The position numbers were made by a program, and so were the translations under genes. A stretch of DNA of 62,062 bases, the filler included, from Babesia bigemina (lineage: Eukaryota), in NCBI RefSeq assembly GCF_000981445.1. It is 10 parts of 10 records of this genome, joined end to end, with 100 filler letters (N's around TTAATTAATTAA, not from the genome) between each part and the next. Parts side by side here need not be neighbours in the genome. Positions count along the whole stretch, not along the records: positions 13,253 to 18,973 come from NW_012236999.1; 9 more parts are not named here. One strand, written 5' to 3'. The notes under the pieces are model-generated. The model was not told the DNA's origin. It worked only from the letters and a program-made list of their open reading frames with translations, and did not search any database. Numbering within the stretch: the first letter of the stretch is position 1; the number at the start of each line of letters is the position of its first letter. Of this stretch, positions 6,744 to 58,783 are shown one piece after another.

Positions 6744-9700
6744 TTATGGCTGCAGGTAAAACACTCTGTTAAGCTTGTTAACACGCGCAGCGGCGAGTAG
6801 CGACTGAGCGGCGATACGATGTGATGAGGGACTATGCAAATGCGATTTGATGTGGAGCAGGTCTAGGCGGATGACCATGATGTGGAGGAGGTAGAGGAGA
6901 GAGAGTAGCCAGAGTGCGACGTTGAGCCAGATGAAGGGGGCGCGGATTGTAAAAATGAATTTGTCGCACGTGTCGAATAGGTCGGTGAAATACTTGGACT
7001 CCAATACGTTCCTCAACTGAGTGCAGAAATTGGAGCACAGTTTTTCTTTTGATTTCATATTCAATGCGATAACGTTGCCAAATGAGAAACCATATCTGTA
7101 GAATGTAGGTGCGACACCTTTGCACTTAACCATCGAATCGCATTTACAGTGTGGGATTTCAGGCTTTTTGTCAACTTTCTCGGTGAGACCATGTTGTCCG
7201 CGTTTGCACTGTCTACTGTTGAGGCAGTTACGGCAACCCCAATCTTGGCAATTAATATTGCAGAAGTCTTGGTATAAATTGTTGAGCAACGTCCAGAAAT
7301 TCCAAGGTAAGTACACTGCCCAGGACAAGTAGGTGTCCGAGTGCGCTTTGGCAACATAATAATATGAATCAGCACATAGGGAAGACATGTAAGGAGCGCA
7401 ATCTACATTTTTCTTGTCGCTACATATGTCACCCGTTGTGAGGTTCTTTACGTGGTTATGCTCGCAACTGCTATGCTTAGTATAACCGGAACCATACGCG
7501 TTAGTTATAGCGTCGGTTAGCTCATTAGGTTGGTCAACTAGATGAATGGACACGTTTTTAATGGACTCTTCGAATGCTGTTTGCACGTCATTTTTGTTGA
7601 GGTTGTCATTATCATACCACCCGCCAACAAGTGACAACGCGAAACCAAAGTGCTCTGGCACACTGGACGGCGGCTTAGGCAAGAGAGTGAACAGCGTCTC
7701 AACTTTTCGGATGCTGAAGAATGAATCGAGTATGGCACATATATCTTTGCCAGTTTTTATGCTACCAGAGAATCCTCTGAATCCAAGGGGAGTCATGCAC
7801 GGTATACCTTTCTTTAAGGTGGAAGGGCAGGTGGCACATTCGTATTTGCAACCAATTTTAGTGAGGTGATGCGGTAAATGCCCGGGCAAGCAATCATTCA
7901 AATAGGACATAAGTGGTGAATTTGGTTGGCAGTTTACTTTGCTGTTTGCCTGGCACTTTGGTTGGCCTGTTACTTGGTCTCTTGAGTGCTCGGTACACTG
8001 CGATTTGCCCATGGGAACATCCATCCCGTACTGACAATCGCGCCATCCCAGATGATTGGAACGGTACTTGCACTGATTTCGCAGGAATTTAAGCGGAGGG
8101 AAGAGCCTACGAAGTACGTCGAGGAACATGTCAAGGCAGCCTTCACCGTCTTGCGGGTAATAGAAGTTGAACGAATTGTTGGAGTAATCGCAGCCGTACA
8201 CTGTCTGAGCGTCGCCGGTACCAGCAATGCAGACGACGGTGTCATACGCTTTGGAGCATACCTCCGTTACGGCTCCTTGTACGCTGTTGTACGTGATCTT
8301 ATCCGGATAGGCTTCAAGGGATGAGCTGTCGTCGACGAACGATACACTGAATTCCTCCTCTTCCTTTTTATTCAAACCGTCGATAATTCCGAGCGTGGTT
8401 ACGTCTCTCATATCCGTATACACGGGATGATGTGGGAGACCCGAAAGCCATACGAGCATCTCATACACGGAACATGGTTGTCTTCTTGCCTGTAAAGTGG
8501 ACAGATAACATACTTCGTTGTACTCATTGACGTGACTGAGCAGGCAGTTGAGGAGGTCAAAGAAATCGAAGTTGTGCTTTTTAACTTTTTCGCCTTCTTC
8601 ATCCTCTTCGTTCGATTCACATTTTAGAAGGTGTTGAGCAATAACTTGGTCGTCGCCGAATTTCGTAGCATTGAGCTTACTATGAATGTTTTTGCCTGTG
8701 AAATCTCTCGATGGGAAGTTTAACTCCCCTTCCTTGGAATCCTTGTTTCCTGCGACCTTATAGCCACAGCGTTTCATGAATTGGCCGAGAGGATTATCGT
8801 CTTCACCATCCATTTCACATATTAATTTGCGCCTCCAGTCACCGTCACACTTATAATTCAACTTATCGAGATCTTCGTGGAGGATGTTGACAATGGTCAG
8901 AAACACTCTAACGCAATTTTTGCCAAGGTCGTTTAATTCACTTGTAAACGTTCCATTCCAAGAGAAATAAACAGCTGGGTCACCGTCGTACTTGTTCACA
9001 TACACCCGCTCCATCTCCTGCACAAACCCCTGCAGCCCCTTTTTGACCGCATCGAGCAGCTCCGGGTGCCGGGGGTTGGCGAAGGCGGAGGGGGTGAGAG
9101 CGGTGAGGGAGGTGGAGAGGGTGGTGAGGAGGGAGGTGAATTTATTGTCGAAATTATACTTTTTATCATCCTTTTGAAGATGTCCAAGTAATTTGTCGAA
9201 GTGTTCTTTGATTTTGGTTAGCTGTATATATGGGTCCGTGGTTTCATTGGTGGTTGCAGGTTTGATCGTATTCTTGACTTGCGCTTTGATATACTCTACA
9301 AGTGGATCGAAATAGTGCTTGCATTTTTCTGTTGCATAATTAAATTCATTTATGCCCGTGAGTTCCGTAAGCTTTCCACGATTGTGATTCATGTACCAGA
9401 GCAGGCACTTGATACCGGATGCTCTGTCTTTGTCGATTATGTTGCGAATCTCGGATTTCTGACTGTCGACAATATTTTTTAATTCTTCGAGTTCCTTCTT
9501 TTTACGGTTGGCGTACAACCATTGAGCTCTTGCCTCTATGTTTTTGGTCGTTATGCTGAATTCCTGCTTCACACGCTCTGCAATTTCTCGCATGGCTTCT
9601 CTTGCTTCGGCTTGCAATACGGAGGTGTAGAAAGCGTTGGCCTTGGTAACTATGGTATTCAAATCGTTTGGCGCATCACCTTCATCGCCAATACCTAGGA

Positions 9701-12008
9701 TGTTCGCAATGCGCTTTTCAATCTCCGTAAGACCCTTTACGGCGGTCTTGTCTTTCCACTCCCCGGTACTTTGTATGCCTTGACTTAAAAAGTCATTTAA
9801 CGTTGTAATGACGTCGTGGCCGACATTATCTTTTTGCAACTCTCCTTGGAGCGCTGTAAGCTCGGCAGTAAGCATTTTGAAATCGTGTGCGATGCCCTTT
9901 ATGTATTTAACGATAAGCATCTTGGCATTGCGAAGTGCCCCGAGTAGGTCGCTGACATAATGTTTCATCTTGGCGACTCTTACTGCATCTATGAGTGATT
10001 GAAATCTAACTTGAAGTGACGTAATCTGATGCTTCACGTCCAGTAAATTATGCGGGAAGCCAGAATCGGGATGTGAAATCGCGGCTGCGAACGCTTTAAT
10101 TTTTGCGATTGGTGCTGCAGCGTCATCCACTGCGGTAGTGAGTGCCTTCTTAATTTCGGATGCAAATGTGGCATTAATGCTGGTAACCTCTGTGTTAACC
10201 GCGTTTATAGCTTCGTCAACTTTCCCTGCAAAATTGGGATGATCAGAGACGTTCTTGCCTTTTTGGTCAATCGCTACTGCTTTCTGGAACCTGGCAAATA
10301 TGGTGTTTTCGTTTTTATCTGAAGACATTAAATCTTTAAAGTACTTCACCGTTGGATATTGTCTCTCGTCCAATTCTTTAAAATCTTCATTAGCTGTCTC
10401 AATAGCATTCTTAAGACCGTCAATGTCTTCTCGTTTAAGCTTTTCAAGCATTTTTTTAATAGACTTATCTTTCTGACCTACAACCGCCTCGGAGAGATTT
10501 CCAATCGCATCATAAACATTATGAAGCAACATTTCAAATTTTTCTTGCATACCAATCAGTTCTAGTCCTTTCACGTGAAATGATACCATATTCAATTTTT
10601 GTTTCAGGTCACCTGTAATTTCTCTATTAAGTTCTTTAATGTTCTCTACATTGTACGTGGCTTGACGTATCACCTCCTCTGCTGACTCCTTCAGCGTCTT
10701 TAAATGACGTTCGGATTTGCTGCACGATTCATCTAGCGCCCTGCTATTGCTTTCCGCTTCATTTAGCAGACCATCTACTGTAATTAATTTAGCTGATACT
10801 TGTTTTTCCGCTTCTTTTTGCACTTTATCAGCATCAGCTGCAATTTTTTTCACATGTGCTTCCAACCTATCATGGACCTGTTGTGCCTTCTGTTTGACCT
10901 GTTGAATAACTTTTGTAGCTTCCTCGATCCACGACTTCAAGTCCGCATCAACTTGCGCCAACTTATCTTTCACATTGGTAATCGGCTTTTGTATCTGCTC
11001 GTTAAACGCTCCTTCAATTTCATTTCCCATTCTAATAACTCGAAAATTAACGAAATCCTTAACTTCCTTCTCCAGCTTTGTGAGCTCCGCCGCCGCCGTC
11101 TTGTTCAACTCCTCCAAGTCCCTATTCCTTGCGTCCTCCCGAAAGGTCTTCGTTGCCTGCAACAGCATGTTAATAGGACATTTCAACTTATCTTTAAGTT
11201 TGGAGTCTATGTCTACTAAGGCGCCTTCGGCGCTCTTCACCTTGGATAGATAATCGTCGGCCCGCGTAGTCCACTCGTTGATCTGTTGGTCGATAGGTTT
11301 TTGTGGCGTTGATTGATCTTTTATGTGCTCTCCAATTTCTGTTTTTATGTTTTCAATGGGCGTAGTAACTAAGTTATTTTTCTCTCTTACTTTCTCTCCA
11401 TACCCCTCCAGCCACGCCTTCACCGCGCCGACAGCATCCACAAGCCCATCACGCCCGGAGCCAATTGAAGATTGTAACATGCTAATAACTGTATCAATTT
11501 TATCTCCACTGATATCTTTATCGTACGTTCTAACTGCATCATCATCTTTCACTGCATCAAACACCCCCAGCAAAAATCCCATCACCCCGTCACACAGCCT
11601 GTCCAAGTCAGAATACACAATCCCAGTGCCGTCGTAGCCTTTGGAGTCAGCGTTGAAGCCGAGGAAAGTCTCAAGGCCAGTGCAGAGGTTATTAAGCAAT
11701 TCAGTTGGATTATTTTTGTTTCTTTCATTTGCTTTTTCAAAGCTCTTAAGTTTCTCTATCTGCTGAGTGATGCTCTTACAATTCGAAGGATCTTGACAAT
11801 CATGAGAATTATGATACTGATTTTCACAGCTTTTACACTGTTTATATTGCTTATTAAGGATATTTAAAGCTTTCTCAGCGGCTTTCTTAACACTCTCACT
11901 TTCACCAACAAATCCTCCAAGCTGACCAGCAAGCTGACCAAGCTGGACAATCTTCTCTTCAACAGACTTAAGAGCCTGGGACTTGGGAGAAGGGTAAAAG
12001 GGTGACAA
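6744..12008 (-). CDS. ves1: ves-like variant erythrocyte surface antigen, tail class A; no in-frame ATG until DGVMGFL
   Basis: 1754-codon open frame with LGQLAGQLGGF, NLCTGLETFLGFN..KGYDGTGIVYSDLDRLCDGVMGFL, coiled-coil region, Cys-rich C-half, TM (PFIWLNVALWLLSLLYLL) and HIKSHLHSPSSHRIAAQSLLAAARVNKLNRVFYLQP tail. Confidence 0.88.
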   Translation of the reverse strand: MSPFYPSPKSQALKSVEEKIVQLGQLAGQLGGFVGESESVKKAAEKALNILNKQYKQCKSCENQYHNSHDCQDPSNCKSITQQIEKLKSFEKANERNKNNPTELLNNLCTGLETFLGFNADSKGYDGTGIVYSDLDRLCDGVMGFLLGVFDAVKDDDAVRTYDKDISGDKIDTVISMLQSSIGSGRDGLVDAVGAVKAWLEGYGEKVREKNNLVTTPIENIKTEIGEHIKDQSTPQKPIDQQINEWTTRADDYLSKVKSAEGALVDIDSKLKDKLKCPINMLLQATKTFREDARNRDLEELNKTAAAELTKLEKEVKDFVNFRVIRMGNEIEGAFNEQIQKPITNVKDKLAQVDADLKSWIEEATKVIQQVKQKAQQVHDRLEAHVKKIAADADKVQKEAEKQVSAKLITVDGLLNEAESNSRALDESCSKSERHLKTLKESAEEVIRQATYNVENIKELNREITGDLKQKLNMVSFHVKGLELIGMQEKFEMLLHNVYDAIGNLSEAVVGQKDKSIKKMLEKLKREDIDGLKNAIETANEDFKELDERQYPTVKYFKDLMSSDKNENTIFARFQKAVAIDQKGKNVSDHPNFAGKVDEAINAVNTEVTSINATFASEIKKALTTAVDDAAAPIAKIKAFAAAISHPDSGFPHNLLDVKHQITSLQVRFQSLIDAVRVAKMKHYVSDLLGALRNAKMLIVKYIKGIAHDFKMLTAELTALQGELQKDNVGHDVITTLNDFLSQGIQSTGEWKDKTAVKGLTEIEKRIANILGIGDEGDAPNDLNTIVTKANAFYTSVLQAEAREAMREIAERVKQEFSITTKNIEARAQWLYANRKKKELEELKNIVDSQKSEIRNIIDKDRASGIKCLLWYMNHNRGKLTELTGINEFNYATEKCKHYFDPLVEYIKAQVKNTIKPATTNETTDPYIQLTKIKEHFDKLLGHLQKDDKKYNFDNKFTSLLTTLSTSLTALTPSAFANPRHPELLDAVKKGLQGFVQEMERVYVNKYDGDPAVYFSWNGTFTSELNDLGKNCVRVFLTIVNILHEDLDKLNYKCDGDWRRKLICEMDGEDDNPLGQFMKRCGYKVAGNKDSKEGELNFPSRDFTGKNIHSKLNATKFGDDQVIAQHLLKCESNEEDEEGEKVKKHNFDFFDLLNCLLSHVNEYNEVCYLSTLQARRQPCSVYEMLVWLSGLPHHPVYTDMRDVTTLGIIDGLNKKEEEEFSVSFVDDSSSLEAYPDKITYNSVQGAVTEVCSKAYDTVVCIAGTGDAQTVYGCDYSNNSFNFYYPQDGEGCLDMFLDVLRRLFPPLKFLRNQCKYRSNHLGWRDCQYGMDVPMGKSQCTEHSRDQVTGQPKCQANSKVNCQPNSPLMSYLNDCLPGHLPHHLTKIGCKYECATCPSTLKKGIPCMTPLGFRGFSGSIKTGKDICAILDSFFSIRKVETLFTLLPKPPSSVPEHFGFALSLVGGWYDNDNLNKNDVQTAFEESIKNVSIHLVDQPNELTDAITNAYGSGYTKHSSCEHNHVKNLTTGDICSDKKNVDCAPYMSSLCADSYYYVAKAHSDTYLSWAVYLPWNFWTLLNNLYQDFCNINCQDWGCRNCLNSRQCKRGQHGLTEKVDKKPEIPHCKCDSMVKCKGVAPTFYRYGFSFGNVIALNMKSKEKLCSNFCTQLRNVLESKYFTDLFDTCDKFIFTIRAPFIWLNVALWLLSLLYLLHIMVIRLDLLHIKSHLHSPSSHRIAAQSLLAAARVNKLNRVFYLQP

Positions 12009-12012
12009 GGCA

Positions 12013-12069
12013 CAAGTTATTGTAATGGTTTATAGAGGTCATAGCGGTATTATGGCGAGGTGATTCAAG
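12013..12069 (-). promoter_or_regulatory. Conserved ~57-bp cassette leader (CTCGAATTACCTCG..TA.TACCGCTATGACCTCT.TA.ACCA....AATAACTTG); copies at 14327-14383, 19991-20047, 20126-20182, 25927-25983, 36300-36356(-), 39013-39069, 58551-58604, 58683-58739, 61956-62011
   Basis: Same element between the 22-bp array and every visible ves 5' end; function inferred. Confidence 0.7.
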
Positions 12070-13152
12070 GGATGTAGAGTGGAGTAAGGGGCGATGTAGA
12101 GTGGATAAAGGGGCGATGTAGAGTGGGTTAGGGAGCGATGTAGAGTGGATAAAGGGGCGATGTAGAGTGGGTTAGGGAGCGATGTAGAGTGGGTTAAGGG
12201 GCGATGTAGAGTGGGTTAGGGAGCGATGTAGAGTGGGTTAAGGGGCGATGTAGAGTGGATAAAGGGGCGATGTAGAGTGGATAAAGGGGCGATGTAGAGT
12301 GGGTTAGGGAGCGATGTAGAGTGGGTTAAGGGGCGATGTGGAGTGGACAGAGGAGCGATGTGGAGTGGATAAAGGAGCGATGTGGAGTGGGAAAAGGGGC
12401 GATGTAGAGTGGGTTAGGGAGCGATGTAGAGTGGATAAAGGAGCGATGTAGAGTGGATAAAGGGGCGATGTAGAGAAGGTTAAGGGGCGATGTAGAGTGG
12501 ATAAAGGGGCGATGTAGAGAAGGTTAAGGGGCGATGTAGAGTGGATAAAGGGGCGATGTAGAGTGGGTTAGGGAGCGATGTAGAGTGGATAAAGGGGCGA
12601 TGTAGAGTGGGTTAGGGAGCGATGTAGAGTGGGTTAAGGGGCGATGTAGAGTGGATAAAGGGGCGATGTAGAGTGGGTAAAGGAGCGATGTGGAGTGGAT
12701 AAGGGAGCGATGTAGAGTGGGTAAAGGGGCGATGTAGAGTGGATTAAGGGGCGATGTAGAGTGGATAAAGGGGCGATGTAGAGTGGGTAAAGGAGCGATG
12801 TGGAGTGGATAAGGGAGCGATGTGGAGTGGATAAAGGAGCGATGTAGAGTGGGTAAAGGGGCGATGTAGAGTGGATTAGGGAGCGATGTAGAGTGGATTA
12901 GGGAGCGATGTATAGTGGATAGAGGAGCGATGTAAGGTGGGTAAAGGAGCGATGTGGAGTGGGTTAGGGAGCGATGTGGAGTGGATAAGGGAGCGATGTA
13001 GAGTGGGTTAAGGAGCGATGTGGAGTGGATTAGGGAGCGATGTAGAGTGGATAAAGGGGCGATGTAGAGTGGGTTAGGGAGCGATGTAGAGTGGATAAAG
13101 GGGCGATGTAGAGTGGATAAAGGGGCGATGTGGAGTGGATAAGGAGCGATGT
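12070..13152 (-). repeat. 22-bp tandem repeat (CCACTCTACATCGC[C/T]CC[T/C]T[T/A]A[T/C] in gene orientation) upstream of ves gene
   Basis: GAGCGATGTAGAGTGGGTTAGG / GGCGATGTAGAGTGGATAAAGG units on + strand. Confidence 0.97.
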
Positions 13153-13252: not shown

Positions 13253-14326
13253 ATCCACATGGCCCCTTATTCCATTCCAATTGGTCCCTAACCCAATTTA
13301 CATCGTCCCTAATCCACTTTACATGGGTTCCTAACCCAATTTACATGCCCCTTAACCCATTCAAATGGCTCCTTAACCAGTTCACATGGCCCCTTATGCA
13401 TTCCACATCGCTCCTTTATCCACTCTACATCGCTCCCTAACCCACTTACATCGCCCCTTACCCACTCCACATCGCCCCTTATCCACTCTACATCGCTCTT
13501 TATCCACTCTACATCGCCCCTTATCCACTCTACATCGCCCCTTTATCCACTCTACATCACCCCTTAACCCACTCTACATCGCCCCTTTGTCCACTCTACA
13601 TCGCTTCTTTATCCACTCTACATCGCCCCTTTATCCACTCTACATCGCCCCTTAACCCACTCCACATCGCTCCCTAACCCACTCTACATCGCCCCTTTAC
13701 GCACTCTACATCGCCCCTTAACCCACTCCACATCGCCCCTTACCCGCTCTACATCGCTCCCTTACCCACTCTACATCGCCCCTTTATCCACTCCACATCG
13801 CCCCTTTATCCACTCCACATCGCTCCCTAATCCACTCTACATCGTCCCTTTATCCACTCTACATCGCTCCTAACCCACTCTACATCGCCCCTTTATCCAC
13901 TCTACATCGCCCCTTTATCCACTCCACATCGCTCCTTTATCCACTCTACATCGCTCCCTAACCCACCCTACATCGCCCCTTTATCCACTCCACATCGCTC
14001 CCTAACCCACTCTACATCGCTCCCTAACCCACTCCACATCGCTCCCTTATCCACTCTACATCGCTCCTTAACCCACTCCACATCGCCCCTTAACCCACTC
14101 TACATCGCCCCTTAACCCACTCCACATCGCCCCTTACCCGCTCTACATCGCTCCCTTACCCACTCTACATCGCCCCTTTATCCACTCCACATCGCCCCTT
14201 AACCCACTCTACATCGCTCCCTAACCCACTCTACATCGCTCCCTAACCCACTCTACATCGCCCCTTAACCCACTCCACACCGCTCCGTTATCCACTCTAC
14301 ATCGCCCCTTAACCCACTCTACATCC
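13253..14326 (+). repeat. 22-bp tandem repeat array
   Basis: CCACTCTACATCGCCCCTTTAT / CCCACTCTACATCGCTCCCTAA units; first ~150 bp degraded at the contig end. Confidence 0.96.
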
Positions 14327-14353
14327 CTCGAATTACCTCGTCTTATTACCGCT

Positions 14354-17300
14354 ATGACCTCTTTAGACCACAATAATAACTTGTGCCTTGTCACCCTTCA
14401 CTTCCCTTCTTCCACCTCCTGCCACTGCCCTGACCATGTGCCGCCTAGGGAGCCTGGCAAGAAATTTGACAAAATTTAAAACCTTAAAATTACCTCAAAT
14501 AACAACCCTACTAACATCCTTAATAACCTCTGTTCCGGCCTCGAAACCTTCCTCGGCTTCAATCCATCCTCCAAAGGCTACACTGGCCAGGGGATTGTCT
14601 ACTCTGACTTGGATAGGCTTAGTGACGGGGTGATGGGATTTTTGAGTGGTATTCTCAGTAACATCAAAGAGCATTTAGGGCAGCATAAAAATGAAATAAA
14701 TATTGCAATTGAAGCTCTTAAGCAAAATAAACACGCCGGTAAAAACGGTTTTAATGTTGCGATTGTAAAGGTGGTCGCAGGGGTGCGGGGGTATAATGGT
14801 AATGTAAAGTCTTCTAATGAAGCAGTGAAAAAACCAATTGAAAAACTAAAAGAAGATATGAAGAAGTATACAAAAGGAAAATTAGATGAAATTAAAGATG
14901 ACGCAGACGTCGGTGATTCTGACCTTTCTGATGCTGTTACCGGAATTGGTAAAAAGTACAATGAGTTTATTAACTCAACTTTTGAAGTGCTGACTGCGTT
15001 GTCAAAAGCCGAAGAAGGCAGCAAAGCAATCAGTGATCTCAATCATAATTGTAAGAATAAAATTATTAATGCTGAAAAGACAATCAGGCATGAGTATGAT
15101 ACACTACAGATGACGTTTCAGAATCAATACACAGACTTAGAGAGATGTATTAATAGTGTGAATAGACATTTCAGTGCTCTTGAGCAACGGGTGAATAGTC
15201 TGGCAAGAGATCAAATTACAAAACTGGTAGATGAGATTAAAAAAGAATTGAGTAAACGCAAGGCGGATATAGAAAGCGAAAAAAATAAGTTAAATACATG
15301 GTTGAATGATACGACAGCAACAAATGATTCGAAATCAGAAAAAGAGGTACTTGAGGACAATTGCTCCAATGTTACGAAGGGTGTGGCTACATTCTCGGTG
15401 CAATATACAACGGTCAATACACAACTTAGTGCCATTAAAAAAGTTGTACAGGATACTGAAGGGACGGACAAACTTGAGACTTTTGTTGAGCAGATCGCAG
15501 TTGCAGCTCAGCAGGTTGGTAATGATTTGGGAAATCATATTAACACCTTGAATGACTGGATGCAGAAAGCCAAGCACGCCGTGACAAATGCTAAAGGAAA
15601 AATGGAGCAGATTGTAAACCTTTTGGAAGATAAACAGGAAAACGGAAAAAAAAGTGATATTAGTAAGGCGGCCACGGAATTACAACAAAAAGCGCAGTCC
15701 CTTCTGACATCCATGAAGGGGGCCAAAAGTGAATTGAGCCGTTTGGTGGGTTCATTACCCAAAACCCTTGATACCATTTTGAAACCATCCATTGCCGCCG
15801 ATCTAAAGGATCTTAGAGATGGAATTAGAAGGAAAGTCGTGGAGTATTTCGAAGAGTTAGGGCTGGCGAAATTCGGTGAAGCGGCAGGGAATACATTCGG
15901 TGGTAATGTTCAGATGCTGAAGTTGAATGGCCGGTTTAAGGATTGGCTTGAAGCGTCCGGTAAAGGTGGACTCAAATTAAAAAATTCCTCCAACAACCTG
16001 ATAGAACACGCATCGTATGCACGAAAGGCACTACTATACGCATTGGATTCACTAAATGCAAAACTCGACACAGACCATGGTAAATCTGGTTTCAACGCAA
16101 TGCGAGAGGACGTTGATGGTAAGATAGATGAGGAGTTTGGCGCAGAAAACAGTCCGTTGAATAATGCTGAAAAAAATCACATGAAAGCTTATAAAGGAAC
16201 TCAGGAGCAGGTGTCGCAGAAGATTAAGCAAATCGAGACCGACGTAAATGATAATCATTTCAAAAAATTCGATGATGGCCAGATTGCAAAAATTGATGAA
16301 GGAGTACTAACGGAAGCCCTCAGAAACGTTAATGACGCCATCGGTGGCTTCACCAATGCCCTTAGAGAGCTCATCGATACGAAAAGTGATCATAGCACCA
16401 ACATGAAATATTATCTCACGAGGCTTGATGATATGCTTTGCGATAAAGGCTATACAGCCTCTCATCGTCTGTCAGGCACGTCGGTCCAAGGTTTTGAAAA
16501 CATTACGGCACAGATCGCCAACCTTAAAAAAAACGATCTGGATACAAAAAGCGGCAGAATCTATGATAAGATCAGCACCGTCGCCAAACAAGTATCATCA
16601 CTTGAAGAAGCTTCCAAAAAAACCACTGTACCCGACGAGACGCTGATAAAGCTTGTCGACAGCCTGCCCGACGATATGGGTAAGCTTAGTTCAAGTATTG
16701 AAGGATCAATTCAGGTAATTGAAGAAGTTAATAATAAGTTAGGAGCATGGTTGATAACTGTCGCAGCATACATTGAACGCCTTAAGGAAGTCGGAGAGCG
16801 ACATATTCACCATTTTGCCACTAAGCTTAAACAAGAAATATCGCTCACATCATCCGCCATTACCACCGAAATTCGAAAACGTTACGTTCGCTGTGTAAAA
16901 AGACAACTTCGATATTTTGCCGACACGATCACCAGCGAGCTTAGCGAGCTGCCCACCCTCATTGACACTGACCGACACATCGGCTTTAAAGGCTTCATGG
17001 AGAAGTTTTATGGCGATTACGTCGATACGTTGAATGATGAGAATATTAAAAAACTCAGTGATCTTGCCACGGCGGCGACCGACTCACCTGCGCAGAAGAA
17101 ACAAGCGTTCGAAAAATTATCCTCCGCCTTCGCTGCCTTCTACCTCCCACTCAACAAGTATCTCCTCGAAGAAATTACACGTGTAAACGAGTCTGAGAAT
17201 AATAAGAAGAATCCCGTTGCCACTGATAAACAACTGTATGGACGTCAGCTCTTCCGAATTTATGACTCATTGAATGAGTTAACCACCCACATTAAGCAAA

Positions 17301-18973
17301 GGCATAGGTATGATTGCATGGTACCCGGGATGCTTGATAAGCTCGGCGCTGCAATTGACGGACTGAAGCCGGACGGATTCTCTCAGCCTAGTACGCCGAT
17401 CATAGATTGTGTCTCCAGCGGTTTTACCAGCCTCGTCTACGAACTGCGTAAAGCGTACACATCGGTGTATGATTCCCAACAGTTCGATAGTAAACTGGTT
17501 GAAGAGACCGGTACCGAAGTCGTCTACAGCACCAAGGTCTATCGGATAGAGGAGTTGACAACGTACGGCCGGAAGTGCGCCAAAGTATGTCTCAGCATTG
17601 TGCCCATTGTGACCGACGCACTAAGTGACCTCAAAGAGAAGCTTGACAACGAAGACGGGAAGTGGAAGAAATATAAGATATATAATTCCGGTGAATCCCA
17701 CCACAGCCTCCATCGGCTGTTCTTCACTGACCACGGTTACGATCCTGGTCTAGCTGTTAACGCCGAGCATGGCGAGTTGAATCATAGAGATGAGTGTATA
17801 GGTGAGCGTATTCTGCGTCATCTTAAAACAGGTGCTAAAGCCTTGTTCACTTCCAGTTCCACCAAGCACCCTTCCAGTCCGGTTACCGATGACATTGCCA
17901 TAGAAGAGGTCCACGAGGGTGGCGTGATTGCAGATCTATTTGCCCACCGTAAGACATACATGGAAGTCTGCCACTTAATTCACATCGACAAACCAAGAAC
18001 GCCATGTAATGTCTACGAAATGTTAGTTTGGCTGACTGGGTTACCACATCATCAGGTTTATGGCAAATTGGAGGACCATATTAAGACGCGTTGCGTTAAG
18101 CCCAAAACACTGCAGCACTTGGAATACAGCAAACTACACAATACAGAACTGAGGCTGGAACAGACTTCGATGATAACGGCACACGTTATAATGCAAACAA
18201 TCGAGAACGTCTGCACAAATGCACCTACGCTCCTCACCACGATCCTCGGCACCGGAGATGAGTTAACCGTCTATGCGTCTGACTTCTCCAACAATGCGCT
18301 CAGGTTCACGTACCCAACCAGTGGTGAAGATTGCCTGCATACGTTCTTAGACATTCTCCGCCGGCTGTGGTCCGTTCTCAGATACTTGGAAGGGCAGTGC
18401 GGTCACCCGTCATCAATCTACGGATGGCGTGACTGCCAATACGGCAAGGCAGTCGACCACTCAAATTGGCAGTGTGAGGACCACCCAAGAAAGAAACCAA
18501 CGTGCCAAGCAAATTTCCAACCAAAGTGCCAGGCAGCGTGCCAACCAAACACCCAAGCAAATTGCCAGCCGGCTTCTCCGTTGATGAGCTACTTCAACGA
18601 CTGCCTACCAGGCCATCTGCCTCACAGGTTGGAATCAATCGGTTGCAAATCAGAATGTAAAACGTGCTCCCCAAAATCGAAGGGGCAGCCCTGTTTGACG
18701 CCACTTGGTTTCAGAGCTTTCTCCGGCTCCACAAAACCCGGCAAGGTGCTCTGCAAAATCCTGGATCAATTCCTGAATTCCGATGACGTTTCATGCTTAT
18801 TTGCACTGGCGCAGAGTCCACCGGCGACATTGGCGGAACATTTCGGCTTTACTTTGTCGCTGGTGAAAGGGTGGCATGAGAGTACTAGAAAATTACAGAA
18901 CAATGGGTTCCAATCAGTGTTTATAAAATCATATATAGCAATCTATAGTCTCTACAGGAGACGGTACACTACT
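14354..18973 (+). CDS. ves1: ves-like gene, 3' truncated by gap; leader ATG 14354 in frame but TAA at 14477-14479
   Basis: MTSLDHNNNLCLVTLHFPSSTSCHCPDHVPPREPGKKFDKI*NLKITSNNNPTNILNNLCSGLETFLGFN, then open frame to the gap with SPLMSYFNDCLPGHLPH and CLTPLGFRAFSGS motifs. Confidence 0.85.
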
Positions 18974-19990: not shown

Positions 19991-20226
19991 CTCGAATTAC
20001 CTCGCTGTAATACCGCTATGACCTCTATAAACCATGCCAATAACTTGTCCCTTGTCACCCTTCCCTTCCCTCTTCCACCGCTTGCCACTGCCTTGTCCCA
20101 TCATGTTTACCCTAAGTCCACATCCCTCGAATTAGCTCGTCTAATTAACGCTATGACCTCTATAAACCATTATAATAACTTGCTGATACTGACCATTCTC
20201 TTACTGACGATGCTACTAAGAAAGCC

Positions 20227-23200
20227 TTGCAGGACATTGAGTCCAAGCTCATTAGCCTTGGTCACCTTGCTGGCCAGCTTGGAGGATTTGTTGGTGAGGG
20301 TGACAGTGTTAAGAAAGCCGTTCAAAAAGCTTTAGATATCCTTAATAAGCAGCTTAAAGAGTGTCAAAACTCTAAAAATAATCTTCCAAATTCTCATGTT
20401 TGTCAAGATCCTCCGAATTGTCAGAGCATCAAGGAGAAGATGGAGAAACTTAAGAGCCTTAAAGAAGCAAATGAAAACGACAAAAATAATCCAAATGAAT
20501 TGCTTAAAAATCTTTGCACTGGCCTCGAAAAATTCCTCGGCTTCAACAAAGATTCAAAAGGCTACGACGGCAGTGGTATTGTGTACTCGGATCTGGACAG
20601 GCTGTCTGACGGGGTGATGGGATTTTTGAGTGGTGTTCTCAGCAACATCAAAGACCATTTAGGGCAGCATAAAACACAAATTAATGAAGCTATTGAAGTA
20701 CTTAAGCAAAATAAACACGCCGGTAAAAACGGTTTTAATGATGCGATTGGACAGGTGGTCGAAGGGGTGGGGAGGTATAATACTGCCGTCTCAGTGTCTA
20801 ATAATCTCGTCAAACAAGAAGTAAAAAAACTCAATGATAAGGTAAGTGATGCATTTTTGAAAAGCGTAGATAATGTTTTAGCAGAGATGAGAGATAAGCA
20901 GAATAATCTGATACCGTACCAAGATAAGCAAGTCGAGCAGGCTGTCGGACAGATTGATGCCAAGTTGGAAGAGTGCAAAAAAAATGCTACAGCATTTATT
21001 AATATCACAGACACTGAACGTAGCGTGATTAAAACATCAATTAATGACTTAAATAGCGATTTGAAACATAAGCTTGAGAACGTGCGTAGGACAGTTGAGT
21101 ATGAGAGCGAGCGGCTGGGGAGGGTGAAGGAGCAGGAAAGCAAGGAGTTGAAAAAGACTATTGAGAAGATTGGTGAAGTGATGCGCACTTTGAAAGTGGA
21201 TGTGGATTGTAAAATCGGTGAGGATGTGAGAGCGTTTGTAAGTGCGTTGAAAAAGAAAGTTACGCCTATTAAGGAAAGTTTGACTGATGCTAATAGCAGA
21301 CTTGCAAAGTACGTTTTCAGCTTGGAACAGTGGATTGTTAATGCGGAAAAAATTATGAGCGATGCAGAAAAACAGGTTAACATAATATTGTCGCAGATTG
21401 AAGAAAATAATCCGCACAAAATTCCTAAACAGATCAACGAGGCGGCGGAGCAGATTGGGTTAGCTGCGCATCAGCTTTTTGATGTTGGTAATGCTGCGAC
21501 GGATAAGGTGGGAGAGGAAGTTAAACAGGCGTTAGAAGCCTTAAAGACAATGAACAATGCGCTTAAGTATGATCTAGGCAATGTGAAACATGAATTACAA
21601 ACCAAGGTCAATGATGTAGTCGAGGCTATTGTGTCGCTTGGGAGACAGTTTAACGACGGTAGCTCTGTGCTCGGCCGCGATACGAGCGATTCAGCCGCCG
21701 CATACGTAGACAAAAAAATCAAACAGGTAACAGACATGCTCGAGGAGCGTCTACGGTGGGATGATACGAGTAGTTCACGATTCCCAGGTTTGGGAAATGG
21801 AGAGGTGAAACTTGAAAAACTATCGATGTATAATAAGCACGTTAAACAGAATGACTTATCGACCGATAAGCCGCTTGAAGGTCTCCTTCCAGATGCCATC
21901 AAGAATATTCAAACCCAGGTGGAAAATGCTATGCAAGCTGCCGCAGATCCATTCAGCGGAATTCAATCGCTCAGCTCTAAGATCACCTACAACCTCCAAG
22001 CATTGTGTGACGCAATCAGGAAAGCTGCCGACACCGATAAGGAAAGCGTTAAGAAGAAATTGACCGAGTTGAAGGAAATTTACTTCGCCAACTATGATCC
22101 TGAGAAACCTAAGGAGGGCACGAATAGCATTAAGAAAATACAATATGATCTCGAAAAATTACGTGATCCCGTGTCTGAGGCCCTCAAAGGCGCCACCGAC
22201 CTACTTGACTCATACTTAGCCAAAGCCGATGAACACTACACTCAACTAATTTCAGACCACGTCAAAAAGGACATCCAAAAAGCCACCGACAAACTCACCA
22301 CCCACGCCCGCAAAACGTACGTCGAGTCCATCAAATTCCTGCTCACGGAGTTTGCCGGCAAGGTGAGGACTGAGTTAAGGGATCTGCCCAGGGAAATTGG
22401 TGCGGACTTGAAGATTGGATTTAAAGGGTTCATGAAAGACTTCCACGTTCCTCTGACTAATGATTTGAGCAGCAATGATTATACTGTTCATAAGTTATCA
22501 TACGCCTTTAAGCTCTGTTTCGGGCCATGGCAAATGCTGCTGGAACGTGAGATCGACAGAGTGGATAAGGAGGAAAGGAAAAGAAAGAATCGCGCGCCGA
22601 CAGTTTCTGAGGTTACGTACACTAAAAAGCTTAAATCTGTTTTCGGCGCACTCGATGACGTGCTCATGCACTTCACCGGCAAGAATGGGTACGACCACGA
22701 GACGCACGGAAAGCTTGACAAGCTCGAAGCTGAGATCGTTGGACTTAAACCAGAAACTTTCGCCAAGCCGAACACCGCCATCCTCGACAGCATCGCCGCG
22801 GGACTCACCAAATTTGTTAGTGAGATGAGAAGCGTCTATGTATCAAAGTATGATCGTGCGTTGCTTACCGATGATTTGACGACTAACCATCGGATTAAAG
22901 TCACAAGCGAAAAATCTGAGGATACGTATGATTTAACAGCGTACGGCAAGAAGTGTTCGAAGGTGTGTCTCACCGTGTTTTCGATTCTTTTTAATGCTTT
23001 GGTCGAGATGAGGACAGTATGCGGTCAGGTTGGGAATGTCAAGAGAATCTATGCGTCAACCAGCGACAAAAAGAATCCGCTCGGTGATTTCTTCAAGTCG
23101 AATGGTTACGATGTTGCCACTGACTCTTTGAAGCAGGACGGTGAATTGCGTAACCATGGGGAGTGTAGGAGCCATAACCTCTTGGAGCTGCTTGTTGCTC

Positions 23201-25116
23201 CATTTCCTGTATTTGATAAGCGATCGTCGCAGGATCACTCCGGATTACTTAAGGATCTATTCGACTACCTCCACCTTTACTACCAAGTCTGCCACCTTTC
23301 CACCACCACGTCGAGGAAGCACCCGTCCTCCATCTACGATATGCTGTGCTGGCTTGCCGGACTAACGTATAGTACCGTGCACCAAGAATTGACACTTCAT
23401 GGTTTCGATAAGCTATTCAAGAAGCCTGAAAAGGTACCCGCACCAGGCGATGACCAAAAGGCTGTCACTGTCGTAACGGAAAATGATGATAACCTGGACA
23501 GCGACGTCCCTCTCCGTGTTGAGGCGGAAGGTTCCTTAGATGCCTATCCAAAAGCAATCACACCGTCAATGTTAACCGACATCCTTCCTGAAGTGTGCAC
23601 CTATTCCGAAATTGTTCTGATCGCGTTGCTGGGTCACGGTCACGGTGACGGGATTTACGCCTGCGACTTCAACACCAACCCGCAAGGCTTCCAGTATCCC
23701 ACCAACATGGACACCTTAGTGTGTATGCTATGCGAAATCGTAAACCGCCTGTACAACCAACTGTATTTCCTGTTAGATCAGTGCAAACGTTCAACTTCGA
23801 TGAGTGGCTGGCGTGAGTGCGAATATGGTCAAGGCGTCGGTGGCTCGGGTTGGCGGTGCAATGACCTAAGCTGCGGCGATTGCAACAGCGCCGAGAAATG
23901 CAAAAGGCACCCAAGGTGCGGCGTAAAATCACCTCTACAATCTTACTTAGAGGACGGGTTACGGGGCTTCCTACCGCATAACCTAGATGGGAACTCCGGC
24001 AAACTCAACTGCCCGGTCAAAAGCCATACCGACGGGCCATGTACAACGCCCATGGGCTTCAATGATATATCAACCGTGGCATCGCACAGGTACACTGGCA
24101 GGCATATTAGAGATGTGCTTGCTGCGTTCTGCGGCACTGCGTCATCTCCCCTCACTGCCCTGTGCTCTATGCTCCGTTGTGTGCTGCCCAGTGCTCCCAA
24201 AACATTTGATCAGATGTTCGCATTCTTCCAATGTTTGCTTGTCGACTGGAATGATCAGAGATTTAAATCACGTATAACGCACAGAGAAGAGGCGTTCAAC
24301 AGTGCCGTCATTGCTGCAAATTTTGAAAATCCCAGTACCCAGCTGGAAATCGCGCCCATGTTTGGAACTACAAGCCACAAATTCGGTAAGCATGCTGATG
24401 GTGCTCTCTACTCCCTGTTAAGCTGTAATCCGAGTTCCAACTCATCTCACGTCTGTGGTCCTTACATGAAGCCTATATGCTCCGAAGTCAGCACAACGTT
24501 CACCGTGAAGCACGCCGATCGGTATCTGTCATCCGTCCTGTATCTGACAGAATCATTCTATAATGTGCTTCAGCAATTGTTTGAGGAGTGCAATAGCAAG
24601 TGTGGCAAACCGGGGACTAGATGCAGTACGCAGAGCTGCGCAAAGGGCTGTGAAAGGCAACAGATAAAAAAAAGAAGTGCCGACCCGAGTCACGATCACG
24701 CCTGCATTTCTGTTGTTAGCTGCCAGTCGACGCTACCCATATTGTACAAGTATGGCTTTATATTCAACGACGCAGAATCGCTAAATGGAGCCAAGCGTAT
24801 CAACACCAAAAGGACGTGCGTTGAATTTTGCAAGACATTAGGGAATGTTGTCAAACAAGGAAGCGTGCTCTACAACCTTGTGCATAGAACAATTCCAGAA
24901 TTTCTATTCACCATCCGCGCCCCCTTCATCTGGCTCAACGTCGCCCTCTGGCTCCTCTCTCTCCTCTACCTCACCAACATCATGGTCATCCGCCTCGACC
25001 TGCTCCACATCAAATCGCATTTGCATAGTCCCTCATCTCATCGTATAGCTGCTCAATCACTCCTTGCCGCTGGACGTGTTAACAAGCTTAACAGAGTGTT
25101 TTATCTGCAACCATAA
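20227..25116 (+). CDS. ves1: ves-like gene, tail class A; leader ATGs out of frame
   Basis: 1629-codon frame: KALQDIESKLISLGHLAGQLGGF, NLCTGLEKFLGFN, CGVKSPLQSYLEDGL, TM, ...GRVNKLNRVFYLQP. Confidence 0.88.
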   Translation: MQDIESKLISLGHLAGQLGGFVGEGDSVKKAVQKALDILNKQLKECQNSKNNLPNSHVCQDPPNCQSIKEKMEKLKSLKEANENDKNNPNELLKNLCTGLEKFLGFNKDSKGYDGSGIVYSDLDRLSDGVMGFLSGVLSNIKDHLGQHKTQINEAIEVLKQNKHAGKNGFNDAIGQVVEGVGRYNTAVSVSNNLVKQEVKKLNDKVSDAFLKSVDNVLAEMRDKQNNLIPYQDKQVEQAVGQIDAKLEECKKNATAFINITDTERSVIKTSINDLNSDLKHKLENVRRTVEYESERLGRVKEQESKELKKTIEKIGEVMRTLKVDVDCKIGEDVRAFVSALKKKVTPIKESLTDANSRLAKYVFSLEQWIVNAEKIMSDAEKQVNIILSQIEENNPHKIPKQINEAAEQIGLAAHQLFDVGNAATDKVGEEVKQALEALKTMNNALKYDLGNVKHELQTKVNDVVEAIVSLGRQFNDGSSVLGRDTSDSAAAYVDKKIKQVTDMLEERLRWDDTSSSRFPGLGNGEVKLEKLSMYNKHVKQNDLSTDKPLEGLLPDAIKNIQTQVENAMQAAADPFSGIQSLSSKITYNLQALCDAIRKAADTDKESVKKKLTELKEIYFANYDPEKPKEGTNSIKKIQYDLEKLRDPVSEALKGATDLLDSYLAKADEHYTQLISDHVKKDIQKATDKLTTHARKTYVESIKFLLTEFAGKVRTELRDLPREIGADLKIGFKGFMKDFHVPLTNDLSSNDYTVHKLSYAFKLCFGPWQMLLEREIDRVDKEERKRKNRAPTVSEVTYTKKLKSVFGALDDVLMHFTGKNGYDHETHGKLDKLEAEIVGLKPETFAKPNTAILDSIAAGLTKFVSEMRSVYVSKYDRALLTDDLTTNHRIKVTSEKSEDTYDLTAYGKKCSKVCLTVFSILFNALVEMRTVCGQVGNVKRIYASTSDKKNPLGDFFKSNGYDVATDSLKQDGELRNHGECRSHNLLELLVAPFPVFDKRSSQDHSGLLKDLFDYLHLYYQVCHLSTTTSRKHPSSIYDMLCWLAGLTYSTVHQELTLHGFDKLFKKPEKVPAPGDDQKAVTVVTENDDNLDSDVPLRVEAEGSLDAYPKAITPSMLTDILPEVCTYSEIVLIALLGHGHGDGIYACDFNTNPQGFQYPTNMDTLVCMLCEIVNRLYNQLYFLLDQCKRSTSMSGWRECEYGQGVGGSGWRCNDLSCGDCNSAEKCKRHPRCGVKSPLQSYLEDGLRGFLPHNLDGNSGKLNCPVKSHTDGPCTTPMGFNDISTVASHRYTGRHIRDVLAAFCGTASSPLTALCSMLRCVLPSAPKTFDQMFAFFQCLLVDWNDQRFKSRITHREEAFNSAVIAANFENPSTQLEIAPMFGTTSHKFGKHADGALYSLLSCNPSSNSSHVCGPYMKPICSEVSTTFTVKHADRYLSSVLYLTESFYNVLQQLFEECNSKCGKPGTRCSTQSCAKGCERQQIKKRSADPSHDHACISVVSCQSTLPILYKYGFIFNDAESLNGAKRINTKRTCVEFCKTLGNVVKQGSVLYNLVHRTIPEFLFTIRAPFIWLNVALWLLSLLYLTNIMVIRLDLLHIKSHLHSPSSHRIAAQSLLAAGRVNKLNRVFYLQP

Positions 25117-36329: not shown

Positions 36330-36357
36330 AGCGGTAATATGGCGAGGTAATTCGAAG

Positions 36358-36592
36358 GATGTAGAGTGGATTAGGGAGCGATGTAGAGTGGGTTAGGGAG
36401 CGATGTAGAGTGGGTTAAGGGGCGATGTAGAGTGGGTAAAGGGGCGATGTAGAGTGGGTAAAGGGGCGATGTAGAGTGGATAAAGGGGCGATGTAGAGTG
36501 GATTAGGGAGCGATGTAGGGTGGGTAAAGGGGCGATGTAGAGTGGGTTAAGGGGCGATGTGGAGTGGATAGAGGAGCGATGTGGAGTGGATA
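36358..36592 (-). repeat. 22-bp repeat array (complete, about 11 units)
   Basis: GCGATGTAGAGTGG units on +. Confidence 0.95.
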
Positions 36593-36616
36593 ATAATCAT
36601 CACTCTGGTCACCACT

Positions 36617-36897
36617 GTCATCGCTGCCGTGAGCATGTCATCGCTGCCGTGACCATGTCATCGCTGCCGTAACCATGACATCGCTGCTGTGTCCATGTCA
36701 TCGCTGCCGTGACCATGTCATCGCTGCCGTGACCATGTCATCGCTGCCGTAACCATGTCATCGCTGCCGTGACCATGTCATCGCTGCCGTAACCATGTCA
36801 TCGCTGCCGTGACCATGTCATCGCTGCCGTGTCCATCTCATCGCTGCCGTGACCATATCATCGCTGCCGTAACCATGACATCGCTGCCGTGACCACC
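36617..36897 (-). repeat. 20-bp repeat array (about 14 units)
   Basis: GTCATCGCTGCCGTGACCAT units. Confidence 0.95.
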
Positions 36898-37067
36898 AAC
36901 TTGGTCACCACGTTGGTCGTGGCATTGGTCACCACTTTGGTCAGGTGCTTGGTCACCACGTTGGTCAGCACGTTGGTCAGCACTTTGGTCACCACGTTGG
37001 TCATGGCATTGGTCAGCACTTTGGTCAGCACTTTGGTCAGCACATTAGTCAGCACCTTGGTCAGCAC
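36898..37067 (-). repeat. 12-bp repeat array
   Basis: TTGGTCAGCAC[G/T/A] units on +. Confidence 0.9.
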
Positions 37068-37196
37068 TTTGCCTGGTTGCTAGGTCAACACGTTGCCTGG
37101 TTGCTAGCTTACCACGTTGCTTGTGTGCCAGCTTAGCACTTAACCTGTCGGTTAGCTTAGCACTTTGCCTGGTTGCTAGCTTAGCACTTAGCTTGG
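37068..37196 (-). repeat. 24-bp repeat (CAAAGTGCTAAGCTAGCAACCAGG in gene orientation)
   Basis: CACTTTGCCTGGTTGCTAGCTTAG units on +. Confidence 0.85.
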
Positions 37197-37336
37197 TCGT
37201 TCACTCATCATCTAATCTTGGTGCTATCTAGTTCACAGGTTGCCGCTAGAGTAATTCGAGACATTAGACTACGTTTGTTGGTTAGGTGAGTAGGTGATTC
37301 GCTAAGTGAGTGTAGTGATTAGAAACGTGAATACAA

Positions 37337-38860: not shown

Positions 38861-39039
38861 AACAACATTTGGCNNNNNNNNNNNNNNNNNNNNNNNNNNN
38901 NNNNNNNNNNNNNNNNNTTAATTAATTAANNNNNNNNNNNNNNNNNNNNNNNNNNNNNNNNNNNNNNNNNNNNTAAACCACTCCACATCGCTCCCTAACC
39001 CACTCTACATCCCTTTAATTACCTCGCCATAATACCGCT

Positions 39040-57554: not shown

Positions 57555-57677
57555 TCGTACTCACGTGTTTACTACCTACACTCACCTAGCATCACCTACT
57601 CACCTAACCTATGAATTGTGCTTTAATCTGTTTTATCACTCATTAACCGCTGTATGTGATTGTGTAGTACTTAACTA

Positions 57678-58550: not shown

Positions 58551-58783
58551 AAATTACCTTGTCATTATACCGCTATGACCTTCTTAAACCATTTTAATAA
58601 CTTGTGCCTTGTCACCCTTCACTTCCCTCTTCCACCTTTTGCCACTGCCATGTCCCATCATGTTCACCCTAACTCCAAATCTCTCTAATTACTTCGTCTT
58701 ATTAACGCTATGACCTCCATTAAACATTATAATAACTTGCTGATACTGACCATTCTCTTACTGACGATGCTACTAGAAGAGCC

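What the first reader, a model, noticed from the sequence alone, without database searches (positions are those of the whole stretch)
14354..14640. Seven of eight visible ves 5' ends lack a usable start although the bodies stay open for up to ~1750 codons
Seen: 14354 and 25954 have an in-frame ATG killed by TAA at codon 42; 39040 has ATG>GTG plus TAA at codon 37; 36329(-) is shifted by a 1-bp deletion; the leader ATGs before 12008(-), 20227 and 58784 are out of frame with stops just upstream. Yet the blocks LGxLAGQLGGF and NLCxGLExFLGFN..KGY.G.GIVYSDLDRL are kept at protein level, usually upstream of the first in-frame Met (DGVMGFL). The TTG/GTG starts in the ORF track are not credible in a eukaryote. 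Inference: the copies are 5'-incomplete donors whose coding content is selected only after recombination, or splicing, onto a 5' end supplied elsewhere.
Basis: partly seen in the sequence, partly recalled or inferred. Interest (0 to 1): 0.82.

Follow-up and report, generated by a model that had tools for sequence, protein, structure and literature searches.

The report
Start-less Babesia antigen gene archive
In this cattle blood parasite, many copies of its variable surface-antigen gene sit head to tail behind short DNA repeats with their normal front end missing but their long reading frames intact, which likely makes them a silent library copied by recombination into a few complete genes to keep changing the parasite's coat.

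Summary
The lesions are real. The window is ten joined contigs carrying Babesia bigemina-like ves1b copies. All 7 readable 5' ends lack the canonical N-terminus (LTDCPENLRE) and are fused at different depths to one leader behind a 22-bp repeat array; 6 of 7 bodies stay open for 1,447-1,731 codons. The leader is not under coding constraint (pN/pS 0.75; linker 0.84), but the 36-codon NLC..DGV block upstream of MGFL is (0.24, CI 0.11-0.43). In three copies no splice acceptor lies between the last stop and that block, so splicing cannot explain it. In a C-terminal census, 70 of 79 labelled homologs with a readable 5' end lack the canonical start; placed ones lie mostly at chromosome ends. Their 5' segments best match two full-length genes (P0025, P0039; 31 of 36). 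Best reading (0.6): a subtelomeric donor archive used by gene conversion. Main rival (0.2): direct translation from MGFL. Corrections: two copies have an earlier in-frame ATG, one body is broken, and 15 homologs have an in-frame leader. Donor use was not observed. Donor pseudogenes were proposed for B. bovis; this architecture was not found in my searches.

The parts
13334..14325 (+). 22-bp tandem array (about 45 copies; C-rich, G-poor on the gene strand) upstream of the leader
14326..14353 (+). conserved end module between the array and the leader ATG, found before every leader in the window
14354..14437 (+). ATG-bearing leader, codons 1-28; no detectable coding constraint
14438..14524 (+). 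linker, codons 29-57, coding-derived but drifting (pN/pS 0.84); holds TAA at 14477-14479
14525..14632 (+). conserved NLC..DGV block, 36 codons, under coding constraint (pN/pS 0.24) though upstream of the first in-frame ATG; inferred 5' homology anchor
14633..18973 (+). ves1b-like body from MGFL, open for 1,447 codons up to an assembly gap
6744..12042 (-). cassette; leader out of frame, enters near residue 124 of P0025; body open 1,612 codons from MGFL
12071..13152 (-). 22-bp array upstream of the 12042 cassette (separate contig from the 14354 cassette)
20018..25116 (+). cassette with doubled leader (20018, 20153), out of frame; in-frame ATG at 20440; body open 1,499 codons from MGFL
25954..31428 (+). 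cassette of the 14354 type, TAA at codon 42; body open 1,731 codons; one C-terminal hydrophobic helix
31689..36329 (-). cassette of the 14354 type, leader frameshifted; in-frame ATG at 36204; body open 1,454 codons up to a gap
36330..37336 (-). complete 1,007-bp spacer between head-to-tail copies: 3' flank, then 24-, 12-, 20- and 22-bp arrays
37337..38873 (-). 3' part of the upstream ves copy (5' end beyond the contig)
39040..43956 (+). cassette of the 14354 type, GTG in place of the leader ATG and TAA at codon 37; body open 1,545 codons
48833..52438 (-). 3' part of a ves copy (5' end beyond the contig)
52539..57554 (+). 3' part of a ves copy (5' end beyond the contig)
57555..58574 (+). complete 1,020-bp spacer: 3' flank, then 12-, 20- and 22-bp arrays
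58575..59808 (+). cassette with doubled leader (58575, 58710), out of frame; body frameshifted near 59100
59909..60609 (+). 3' end of a ves copy
60610..61982 (+). complete 1,373-bp spacer: 3' flank, then 12-, 20- and 22-bp arrays
61983..62062 (+). leader joined at ESIDWL (about residue 15 of the canonical protein); cut by the window end

Best explanation
These are 5'-truncated ves1b copies in head-to-tail, repeat-spaced arrays that likely act as a silent donor archive whose sequence is translated only after gene conversion into a full-length ves1b gene. Shown: the truncation at several depths, the shared non-coding leader behind a fixed series of repeats, the open bodies, the coding constraint on the block upstream of MGFL, and tract sharing with a few full-length genes. 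Inferred: the copies are silent; the NLC..DGV-MGFL block and the conserved C-terminus serve as 5' and 3' homology anchors (the repeats possibly too); the recipients are the full-length genes closest to the archive (P0025 and P0039, then P0016 and P0126); selection on the recombinants keeps the bodies open while the leader and linker, which are never carried into a working gene, drift.
For: (a) pN/pS is 0.24 for the block (7 copies; 24 of 41 variable columns at third positions, p 0.0008) against 0.84 for the linker and 0.57-0.90 for the leader in its three frames. (b) In 15 homologs with an intact in-frame leader, replacements in leader and linker are no more conservative than random base changes (mean BLOSUM -0.93 and -1.22 vs -0.65 and -0.36) while those in the block are (+0.11 vs -0.70). 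(c) 0 stops in 9,288 codons of 6 bodies, against about 11-13 expected per body if they had drifted as far as the linker. (d) Entry points near residues 15, 124, 128 and 232-254 of P0025. (e) The canonical N-terminus lies on chromosome-size contigs in 22 of 24 cases, the non-canonical in 8 of 64. Published coordinates put same-strand runs of such genes 0.8-1.3 kb from the assembled ends of chromosomes 2 and 3. (f) 31 of 36 truncated 5' segments best match P0025 or P0039, and the LGxLAGQLG module is in 16 of 36 of them but in only 1 (P0025) of the 20 canonical genes tested. (g) P0016, P0025, P0039 and P0126 have 21-26% of their length in rare exact 15-mers shared with truncated copies; the other 20 canonical genes have 0-11%. 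The classes intermix on a C-terminal tree. (h) In a published proteome of another isolate, peptides are spread thinly over 20 chromosome-end genes, as a mosaic would give. (i) Segmental gene conversion from non-transcribed donors is established for B. bovis ves (PMC6630957).
Against: No conversion event, transcript or expression site was observed. The direction of exchange is unknown: full-length genes could be the source and the arrays the sink. The block's low pN/pS could be imported from working genes by conversion without the copies ever donating. The block-versus-leader contrast within the four colinear copies alone is not significant (Fisher p 0.09). P0025 has the longest 5' segment, which favours it as best hit. 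Most of P0025's middle has no exact match among the 127 truncated proteins held. 2 of 7 copies have an earlier in-frame ATG, and 7 of 70 non-canonical census proteins have an intact in-frame leader. The proteome signal on array genes fits direct expression equally well. Database N-termini are gene-model predictions whose DNA I could not see.
Confidence: 0.6

Rival explanations
1. The copies are expressed in place as N-terminally shortened VESA1 proteins, starting at the MGFL ATG (or an earlier ATG where one exists), with the leader ATG as an upstream ORF.
For: All 7 copies have the MGFL ATG with a purine at -3 in the two contexts printed; 43 of 79 census proteins are annotated from it. Open bodies are what direct selection gives. 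VESA1 is described as having no N-terminal signal peptide (PMC6630957). Peptides were assigned to 12 genes whose non-canonical start I hold, including the doubled-leader gene BBBOND_0300010 = P0022 (iBAQ 11,090).
Against: It does not explain coding constraint on 36 codons that would be 5' UTR in 5 of 7 copies. The three complete spacers are 1.0-1.4 kb and almost all tandem repeat. The MGFL Met is an internal conserved residue of full-length genes. The proteome is from another isolate, with 1-7 quantifying peptides per gene and no unplaced genes in the table.
Confidence: 0.2
2. The arrays are a subtelomeric sink: truncated duplicates generated and overwritten by ectopic recombination, with no donor role.
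For: One body (58710) is frameshifted. A shared 5' cap of about 280 nt sits on bodies only 27-31% identical among the four colinear copies, so parts move freely between copies. Exchange direction is untested.
Against: Truncated copies outnumber full-length ones about 5 to 1 (127 vs 24), and 20 of 24 full-length genes share little exact sequence with them, so there is no visible source for so many diverse open frames. B. ovata proteins show the same two classes (15 canonical of 72).
Confidence: 0.12
3. Splicing (a short first exon from the leader, or a missed upstream exon) or assembly error accounts for the apparent lesions.
For: Babesia ves genes have short 5' introns in B. bovis (PMC4066756). 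Frame-restoring GT-AG pairs exist arithmetically for 12042, 20018/20153, 36329 and 58575. Several database models appear to splice the leader into frame. The window is a draft of short contigs.
Against: No AG lies between the last stop and the block in 14354, 25954 and 39040; there are 0 GT-AG solutions for 58710 and no pair common to all copies. No canonical first exon is found in the three complete spacers. The same TAA is in two copies, and the short C run is in several leaders, which argues against read error.
Confidence: 0.08

Closest known systems
Babesia bovis ves1 segmental gene conversion (LAT and non-transcribed donors)
   Same: Homologous gene family. Donor-to-expressed-gene conversion is established (PMC6630957 passages), and truncated ves1 genes were proposed as 'functional pseudogenes' (PMC2034396 passages).
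   Different: B. bovis ves1 are described as scattered, largely head-to-head alpha/beta pairs, not subtelomeric tandem arrays (PMC4413850 passages). Here the copies are head-to-tail, repeat-spaced, near full length and lack only the 5' end.
Babesia bigemina BbigVes1b (PMC4066756)
   Same: The 14354 body aligns along its length to BBBOND_0303890 (P0034), 25% identity, E 2e-100; same C-terminal membrane-anchor type.
   Different: The 11 of 18 proteome rows labelled BbigVes1b whose sequence I hold all have the canonical N-terminus; the chromosome-end genes are labelled 'hypothetical' or 'undefined' there. The sections I read do not mention 5' truncation, the leader or the repeat spacer.
Trypanosoma brucei silent VSG archive
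   Same: Subtelomeric arrays, repeats upstream of each copy, copies that cannot be expressed in place, and mosaics by segmental conversion (PMC4528486 passages).
   Different: Unrelated protein. Most VSG array genes carry frameshifts or truncations, whereas here 6 of 7 bodies are open and the damage is confined to the 5' end. Repeats at a recipient locus were not testable.
Pneumocystis msg-I with UCS/CRJE
   Same: Subtelomeric genes lacking promoter and protein start, expressed only after recombination with a locus that supplies them (PMC5676039 passages).
   Different: msg-I genes all begin at one fixed 33-bp in-frame junction, use a single-copy UCS and point towards the telomere. Here the entry depth and frame vary, there are many full-length genes, and the placed homologs read away from the assembled chromosome ends.

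Membership tests
ves1b (B. bigemina VESA1b) | conserved C-terminal domain with a single transmembrane helix | tested here: met
   8 C-termini align; one hydrophobic peak near the end in the 26080 ORF, as in P0034 and P0025
ves1b (B. bigemina VESA1b) | homology over the length to a labelled BbigVes1b protein | tested here: met
   E 2e-100, 25% over 1,514 columns to P0034 = BBBOND_0303890, labelled BbigVes1b in Table S1; MGFL-start homologs are in a published VESA list
ves1b (B. bigemina VESA1b) | canonical N-terminus (LTDCPENLRE[AS]IDWL), a feature I derived from labelled members | tested here: not met
   absent from 7 of 7 readable copies; 61983 keeps only ESIDWL. The copies are filed as 5'-truncated ves1b-like copies, not as complete genes
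ves1b (B. bigemina VESA1b) | Pfam VESA1_N (PF12785) | tested here: inconclusive
   no hit in 8 window proteins, nor in the canonical B. bigemina proteins scanned; 1 of 8 homologs (B. ovata P0070) had a short hit. The model does not cover this subfamily
B. bovis-type LAT pair | head-to-head pair sharing a bidirectional promoter | tested here: not met
   within contigs the copies are head-to-tail; the apparent divergent pair 12042/14354 spans an assembly spacer
silent donor cassette archive (VSG/msg-I-like mode of action) | copies lack the normal protein start | tested here: met
silent donor cassette archive (VSG/msg-I-like mode of action) | tandem arrays at chromosome ends with upstream repeats | tested here: met
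   repeats and tandem order in the window; chromosome-end position shown only for placed homologs; telomere repeats not checked
silent donor cassette archive (VSG/msg-I-like mode of action) | sequence exchange with complete genes | tested here: inconclusive
   shared exact tracts and an intermixed tree, direction unknown
silent donor cassette archive (VSG/msg-I-like mode of action) | not transcribed or translated in place | not testable with these tools
   no sequencing run was listed
silent donor cassette archive (VSG/msg-I-like mode of action) | conversion into an expression site observed during switching | not testable with these tools
   needs clonal switch lines
Pneumocystis msg-I/CRJE system | one fixed in-frame junction element shared with a single-copy upstream sequence | tested here: not met
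   junctions at four or more depths and in three frames; 24 full-length genes

The most novel reading that the evidence does not exclude
B. bigemina, and probably B. ovata, run a trypanosome-style two-tier system: more than a hundred start-less, repeat-flanked ves1b cassettes at chromosome ends feed a few dedicated recipient genes (the MRHVPKK-start P0025 and P0039), and these mosaics, filed as hypothetical proteins so far, make up most of the VESA1 that is expressed.
Probability: 0.35. Interest if true: 0.82.

Novelty: new variant of a known kind. Interest (0 to 1): 0.63.

Why it matters
How B. bigemina varies its erythrocyte-surface antigen is unresolved: few of its ves1 genes are in B. bovis-type pairs (35%, PMC4066756). 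If the arrays are a donor archive, the repertoire is larger than the labelled one, the MGFL-start and spliced-leader gene models in databases are mostly annotation artefacts, and two named candidate recipient genes make the switching mechanism directly testable by long-read sequencing. It would also be another convergent case of the subtelomeric silent-archive design, in a genus that a 2014 review described as lacking subtelomeric gene families (PMC4413850).

Tried and rejected
No whole genome is held for the window. RNA test: no RNA holder was listed for window 19995-25200, which is no evidence either way; read laying was therefore not possible. Pfam gave only coiled-coil-type matches below the curated cut-offs for the window proteins. 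Earlier findings: 3 look-ups, nothing shown. Supplement searches for expression values of named genes found no rows in PMC10975891 and only a gene list in PMC9531838. Rejected: a divergent promoter pair at 12042/14354 (assembly spacer between them); one common cis-intron; uniform recoding by read-through or frameshifting (the lesions differ in kind and place; inference); the leader as a selected N-terminus (note that the first 10 codons in the ATG frame gave 0.40, CI 0.13-1.05, so weak constraint there is not excluded). Body pN/pS of 0.37-0.66 is not used as evidence because windows were chosen by amino-acid identity. The 'keeps NLC' flag was wrong for 14354, 25954 and 39040 (it picked a leader motif); re-tested those three directly. 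The C-terminal tree is a quick search on mosaic sequence and shows only that the classes intermix.

Full report
What the window is. N-TTAATTAATTAA-N spacers at nine places split it into ten contigs of 2-8 kb, so only relations inside a contig count. The long ORFs hit proteins labelled Babesia bigemina and B. ovata. The 14354 body aligns to BBBOND_0303890 (P0034; 25% over 1,514 columns, E 2e-100), which PMC4066756 labels BbigVes1b and names as one of two co-dominant expressed VESA1B. The copies are ves1b-like.

Checking the observation. Ten leader modules occur, two cassettes having a doubled leader. Six of seven bodies are open: 1,447, 1,731, 1,545, 1,454, 1,612 and 1,499 codons from MGFL, 0 stops. 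The seventh (58710) breaks near 59100. Two copies have an in-frame ATG upstream of the conserved block (36204(-), 20440), and LGxLAGQLGGF is in only two copies. The eighth 5' end is cut by the window.

Anatomy. Wherever a contig shows it, the order is: stop codon, conserved 3' flank, [24-bp array], 12-bp array, 20-bp array, 22-bp array, end module, leader, body. Three spacers are complete (1,007, 1,020 and 1,373 bp). A short-word tblastn with four canonical N-termini found in the window only ESIDWL at 62037 and a different, decayed ves-like gene at 4409(-). Against the 321-residue N-terminal region of the full-length protein P0025, the window's copies enter near residues 15 (61983), 124 (12042), 128 (20153), 246 (58710) and 229-254 (the four colinear copies). 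They are nested 5' truncations joined to one leader, in all three frames.

Where coding constraint begins. From window DNA: the 36 codons upstream of MGFL give pS 0.383, pN 0.094, ratio 0.24 (codon bootstrap 0.11-0.43; 7 copies), with 24 of 41 variable columns at third positions (p 0.0008). The four colinear copies alone also give 0.24 (0.07-0.49). Their linker (codons 29-57) gives 0.84 (0.39-2.52). The first 48 leader bases give 0.75, 0.90 and 0.57 in the three frames; 39 bases upstream of the ATG give 0.89; the C-terminal 60 codons give 0.34. The direct block-versus-leader contrast in the four copies is weak (p 0.09). An independent test agrees: in 15 database proteins with an intact in-frame leader, leader and linker replacements look like random base changes while block replacements are conservative (12 of 18 vs 19 of 54 with BLOSUM at or above 0, p 0.03). 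So the leader ATG is probably not a selected start even where it is in frame, and the block is selected although 5 of 7 copies have no in-frame ATG before it.

Splicing. Frame-restoring GT-AG pairs exist arithmetically for some copies, but none is shared by all, 58710 has none, and 14354, 25954 and 39040 have no AG between their last stop and the block. Splicing cannot bring that block into frame in those three.

Genome-wide picture, from proteins only. A search with a C-terminal query, which does not favour any 5' end but samples mainly one C-terminal subtype, returned 98 proteins; 4 B. ovata rows were dropped. Of 94, 15 were fragments or began downstream. The other 79 were 9 canonical, 7 with an in-frame leader of the 14354 type, 10 with other leader-derived starts, 43 starting at MGFL and 10 at another internal Met. 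Among 88 proteins from the two N-terminal searches, 22 of 24 canonical ones lie on chromosome-size contigs against 8 of 64 others. Placed non-canonical genes have tags mostly at chromosome ends. B. ovata proteins show both classes (15 canonical of 72); their DNA was not seen.

Candidate recipients. Of 24 canonical proteins, four (P0016, P0025, P0039, P0126) have 21-26% of their length in rare exact 15-mers shared with the 127 truncated proteins held (three of which are the window's own). The other 20 have 0-11%; truncated-to-truncated median is 28%; P0025 has 43 partners. Of 36 truncated proteins with at least 60 residues before the block, 24 best match P0025 and 7 P0039 (P0025's longer segment favours it). 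Both begin MRHVPKK and lie on unplaced contigs of 10.7 and 8.4 kb. Direction of transfer is not shown.

Expression evidence. No sequencing run was available. In the published proteome of another isolate, all 11 of the 18 rows labelled BbigVes1b whose sequence I hold are canonical. Twenty rows for chromosome-end genes, labelled hypothetical or undefined, sum to iBAQ 28,077 against 14,119 for the 18 labelled rows; one mixed group row (7,484) is left out of both; 12 of the 20 have a non-canonical start in my set (20,479). These are the rows my term searches showed, not the whole table. No unplaced gene appears in the table. So array-type sequence appears to be translated in some form. Thin peptide support across many genes fits a mosaic made at a locus missing from the table, but it also fits direct expression or misassignment.

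Mechanism. Most likely (0.6) the arrays are a silent archive. The conserved block and C-terminus would anchor gene conversion into full-length genes; selection on recombinants would keep bodies and block coding while leader and linker drift. The four colinear copies share a cap whose linker differs by only 13-15% on bodies only 27-31% identical, which shows that the cap moves between copies by recombination. Rivals: in-place translation from MGFL (0.2), a non-functional sink (0.12), splicing or error (0.08).

Literature seen. PMC4066756: outline, passages, sections 13, 21, 22 (part 1 of 2), 23, 25, 26, supplementary legends and searched rows of Table S1; figures, including the gene-model figure and the RNA-seq figure S3, are not held and may bear on intron structure and on expression of the arrays. 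Passages only: PMC5660447, PMC6630957, PMC10463595, PMC2034396, PMC4413850, PMC5676039, PMC4528486, PMC10975891 (plus a supplement search) and PMC9531838 (plus supplement searches and part 4 of 5 of Table S5, where 33 B. bigemina rows, several of them MGFL-start genes, are listed as VESA). Six searches gave no paper whose title, abstract start or read passages describe 5'-truncated, repeat-spaced ves1b arrays in B. bigemina. The library lacks most subscription papers. Donor use of truncated ves genes was already proposed for B. bovis, and B. divergens ves were described as subtelomeric tandem arrays.

Verdict. A real, well-delimited feature and a new variant of a known design; the mechanism is inferred, not observed. 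Interest 0.63.

Noticed in passing
window 3900-4409 (-): Decayed ves-like gene with a canonical-type start (MVYNVLTEAPHNLKEGIDWL) in an A-rich ATG context; stops and frameshifts after about 67 codons; next to ordinary genes on contig 1.
   Followed up: partly
window 46791-47249 (-) and about 46550-46700 (-): Inside one spacer, two 3'-end gene fragments: a Cys-rich stretch ending in a hydrophobic helix and short tail, and a second hydrophobic-helix tail. They resemble ves1a-type C-termini (recalled, not tested).
   Followed up: no
window 45198-45745 (+) and 47238-47773 (-): 75-bp tandem repeat whose unit holds GTGAGT and TTTGCAG, i.e. splice-donor- and acceptor-like words (consensus recalled); possibly a repeated mini-exon/mini-intron remnant.
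   Followed up: no
window about 47780-48280 (-) and about 44705-45198 (+): Non-repetitive stretch of about 500 bp between the 24-bp and 75-bp arrays in two contigs; the only sizeable unique spacer sequence seen.
   Followed up: no
window 20018-20152 and 58575-58709: Doubled leader: a 135-bp unit (leader plus degenerate repeat end) precedes a second leader; the same doubling is seen in database proteins P0022, P0040, P0046, P0054.
   Followed up: partly
window 3' flanks after 6744, 25116, 57554, 60609 vs 31428, 37337, 43956, 48833: Two C-terminal subtypes (…NKLNRVFYLQP and …GRLAKISYLQP) each travel with their own 3' flank; the 24-bp array follows the second subtype.
   Followed up: partly
window 12071-13152, 13334-14325, 19074-19993, 58007-58548: The 22-bp arrays are strongly strand-biased (48% C, 5% G on the gene strand in the three measured), which could favour secondary structure or R-loops; untested.
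   Followed up: no
window 5093-6519: Unusually long 20-bp array (about 72 copies) downstream of the 12042 cassette.
   Followed up: no
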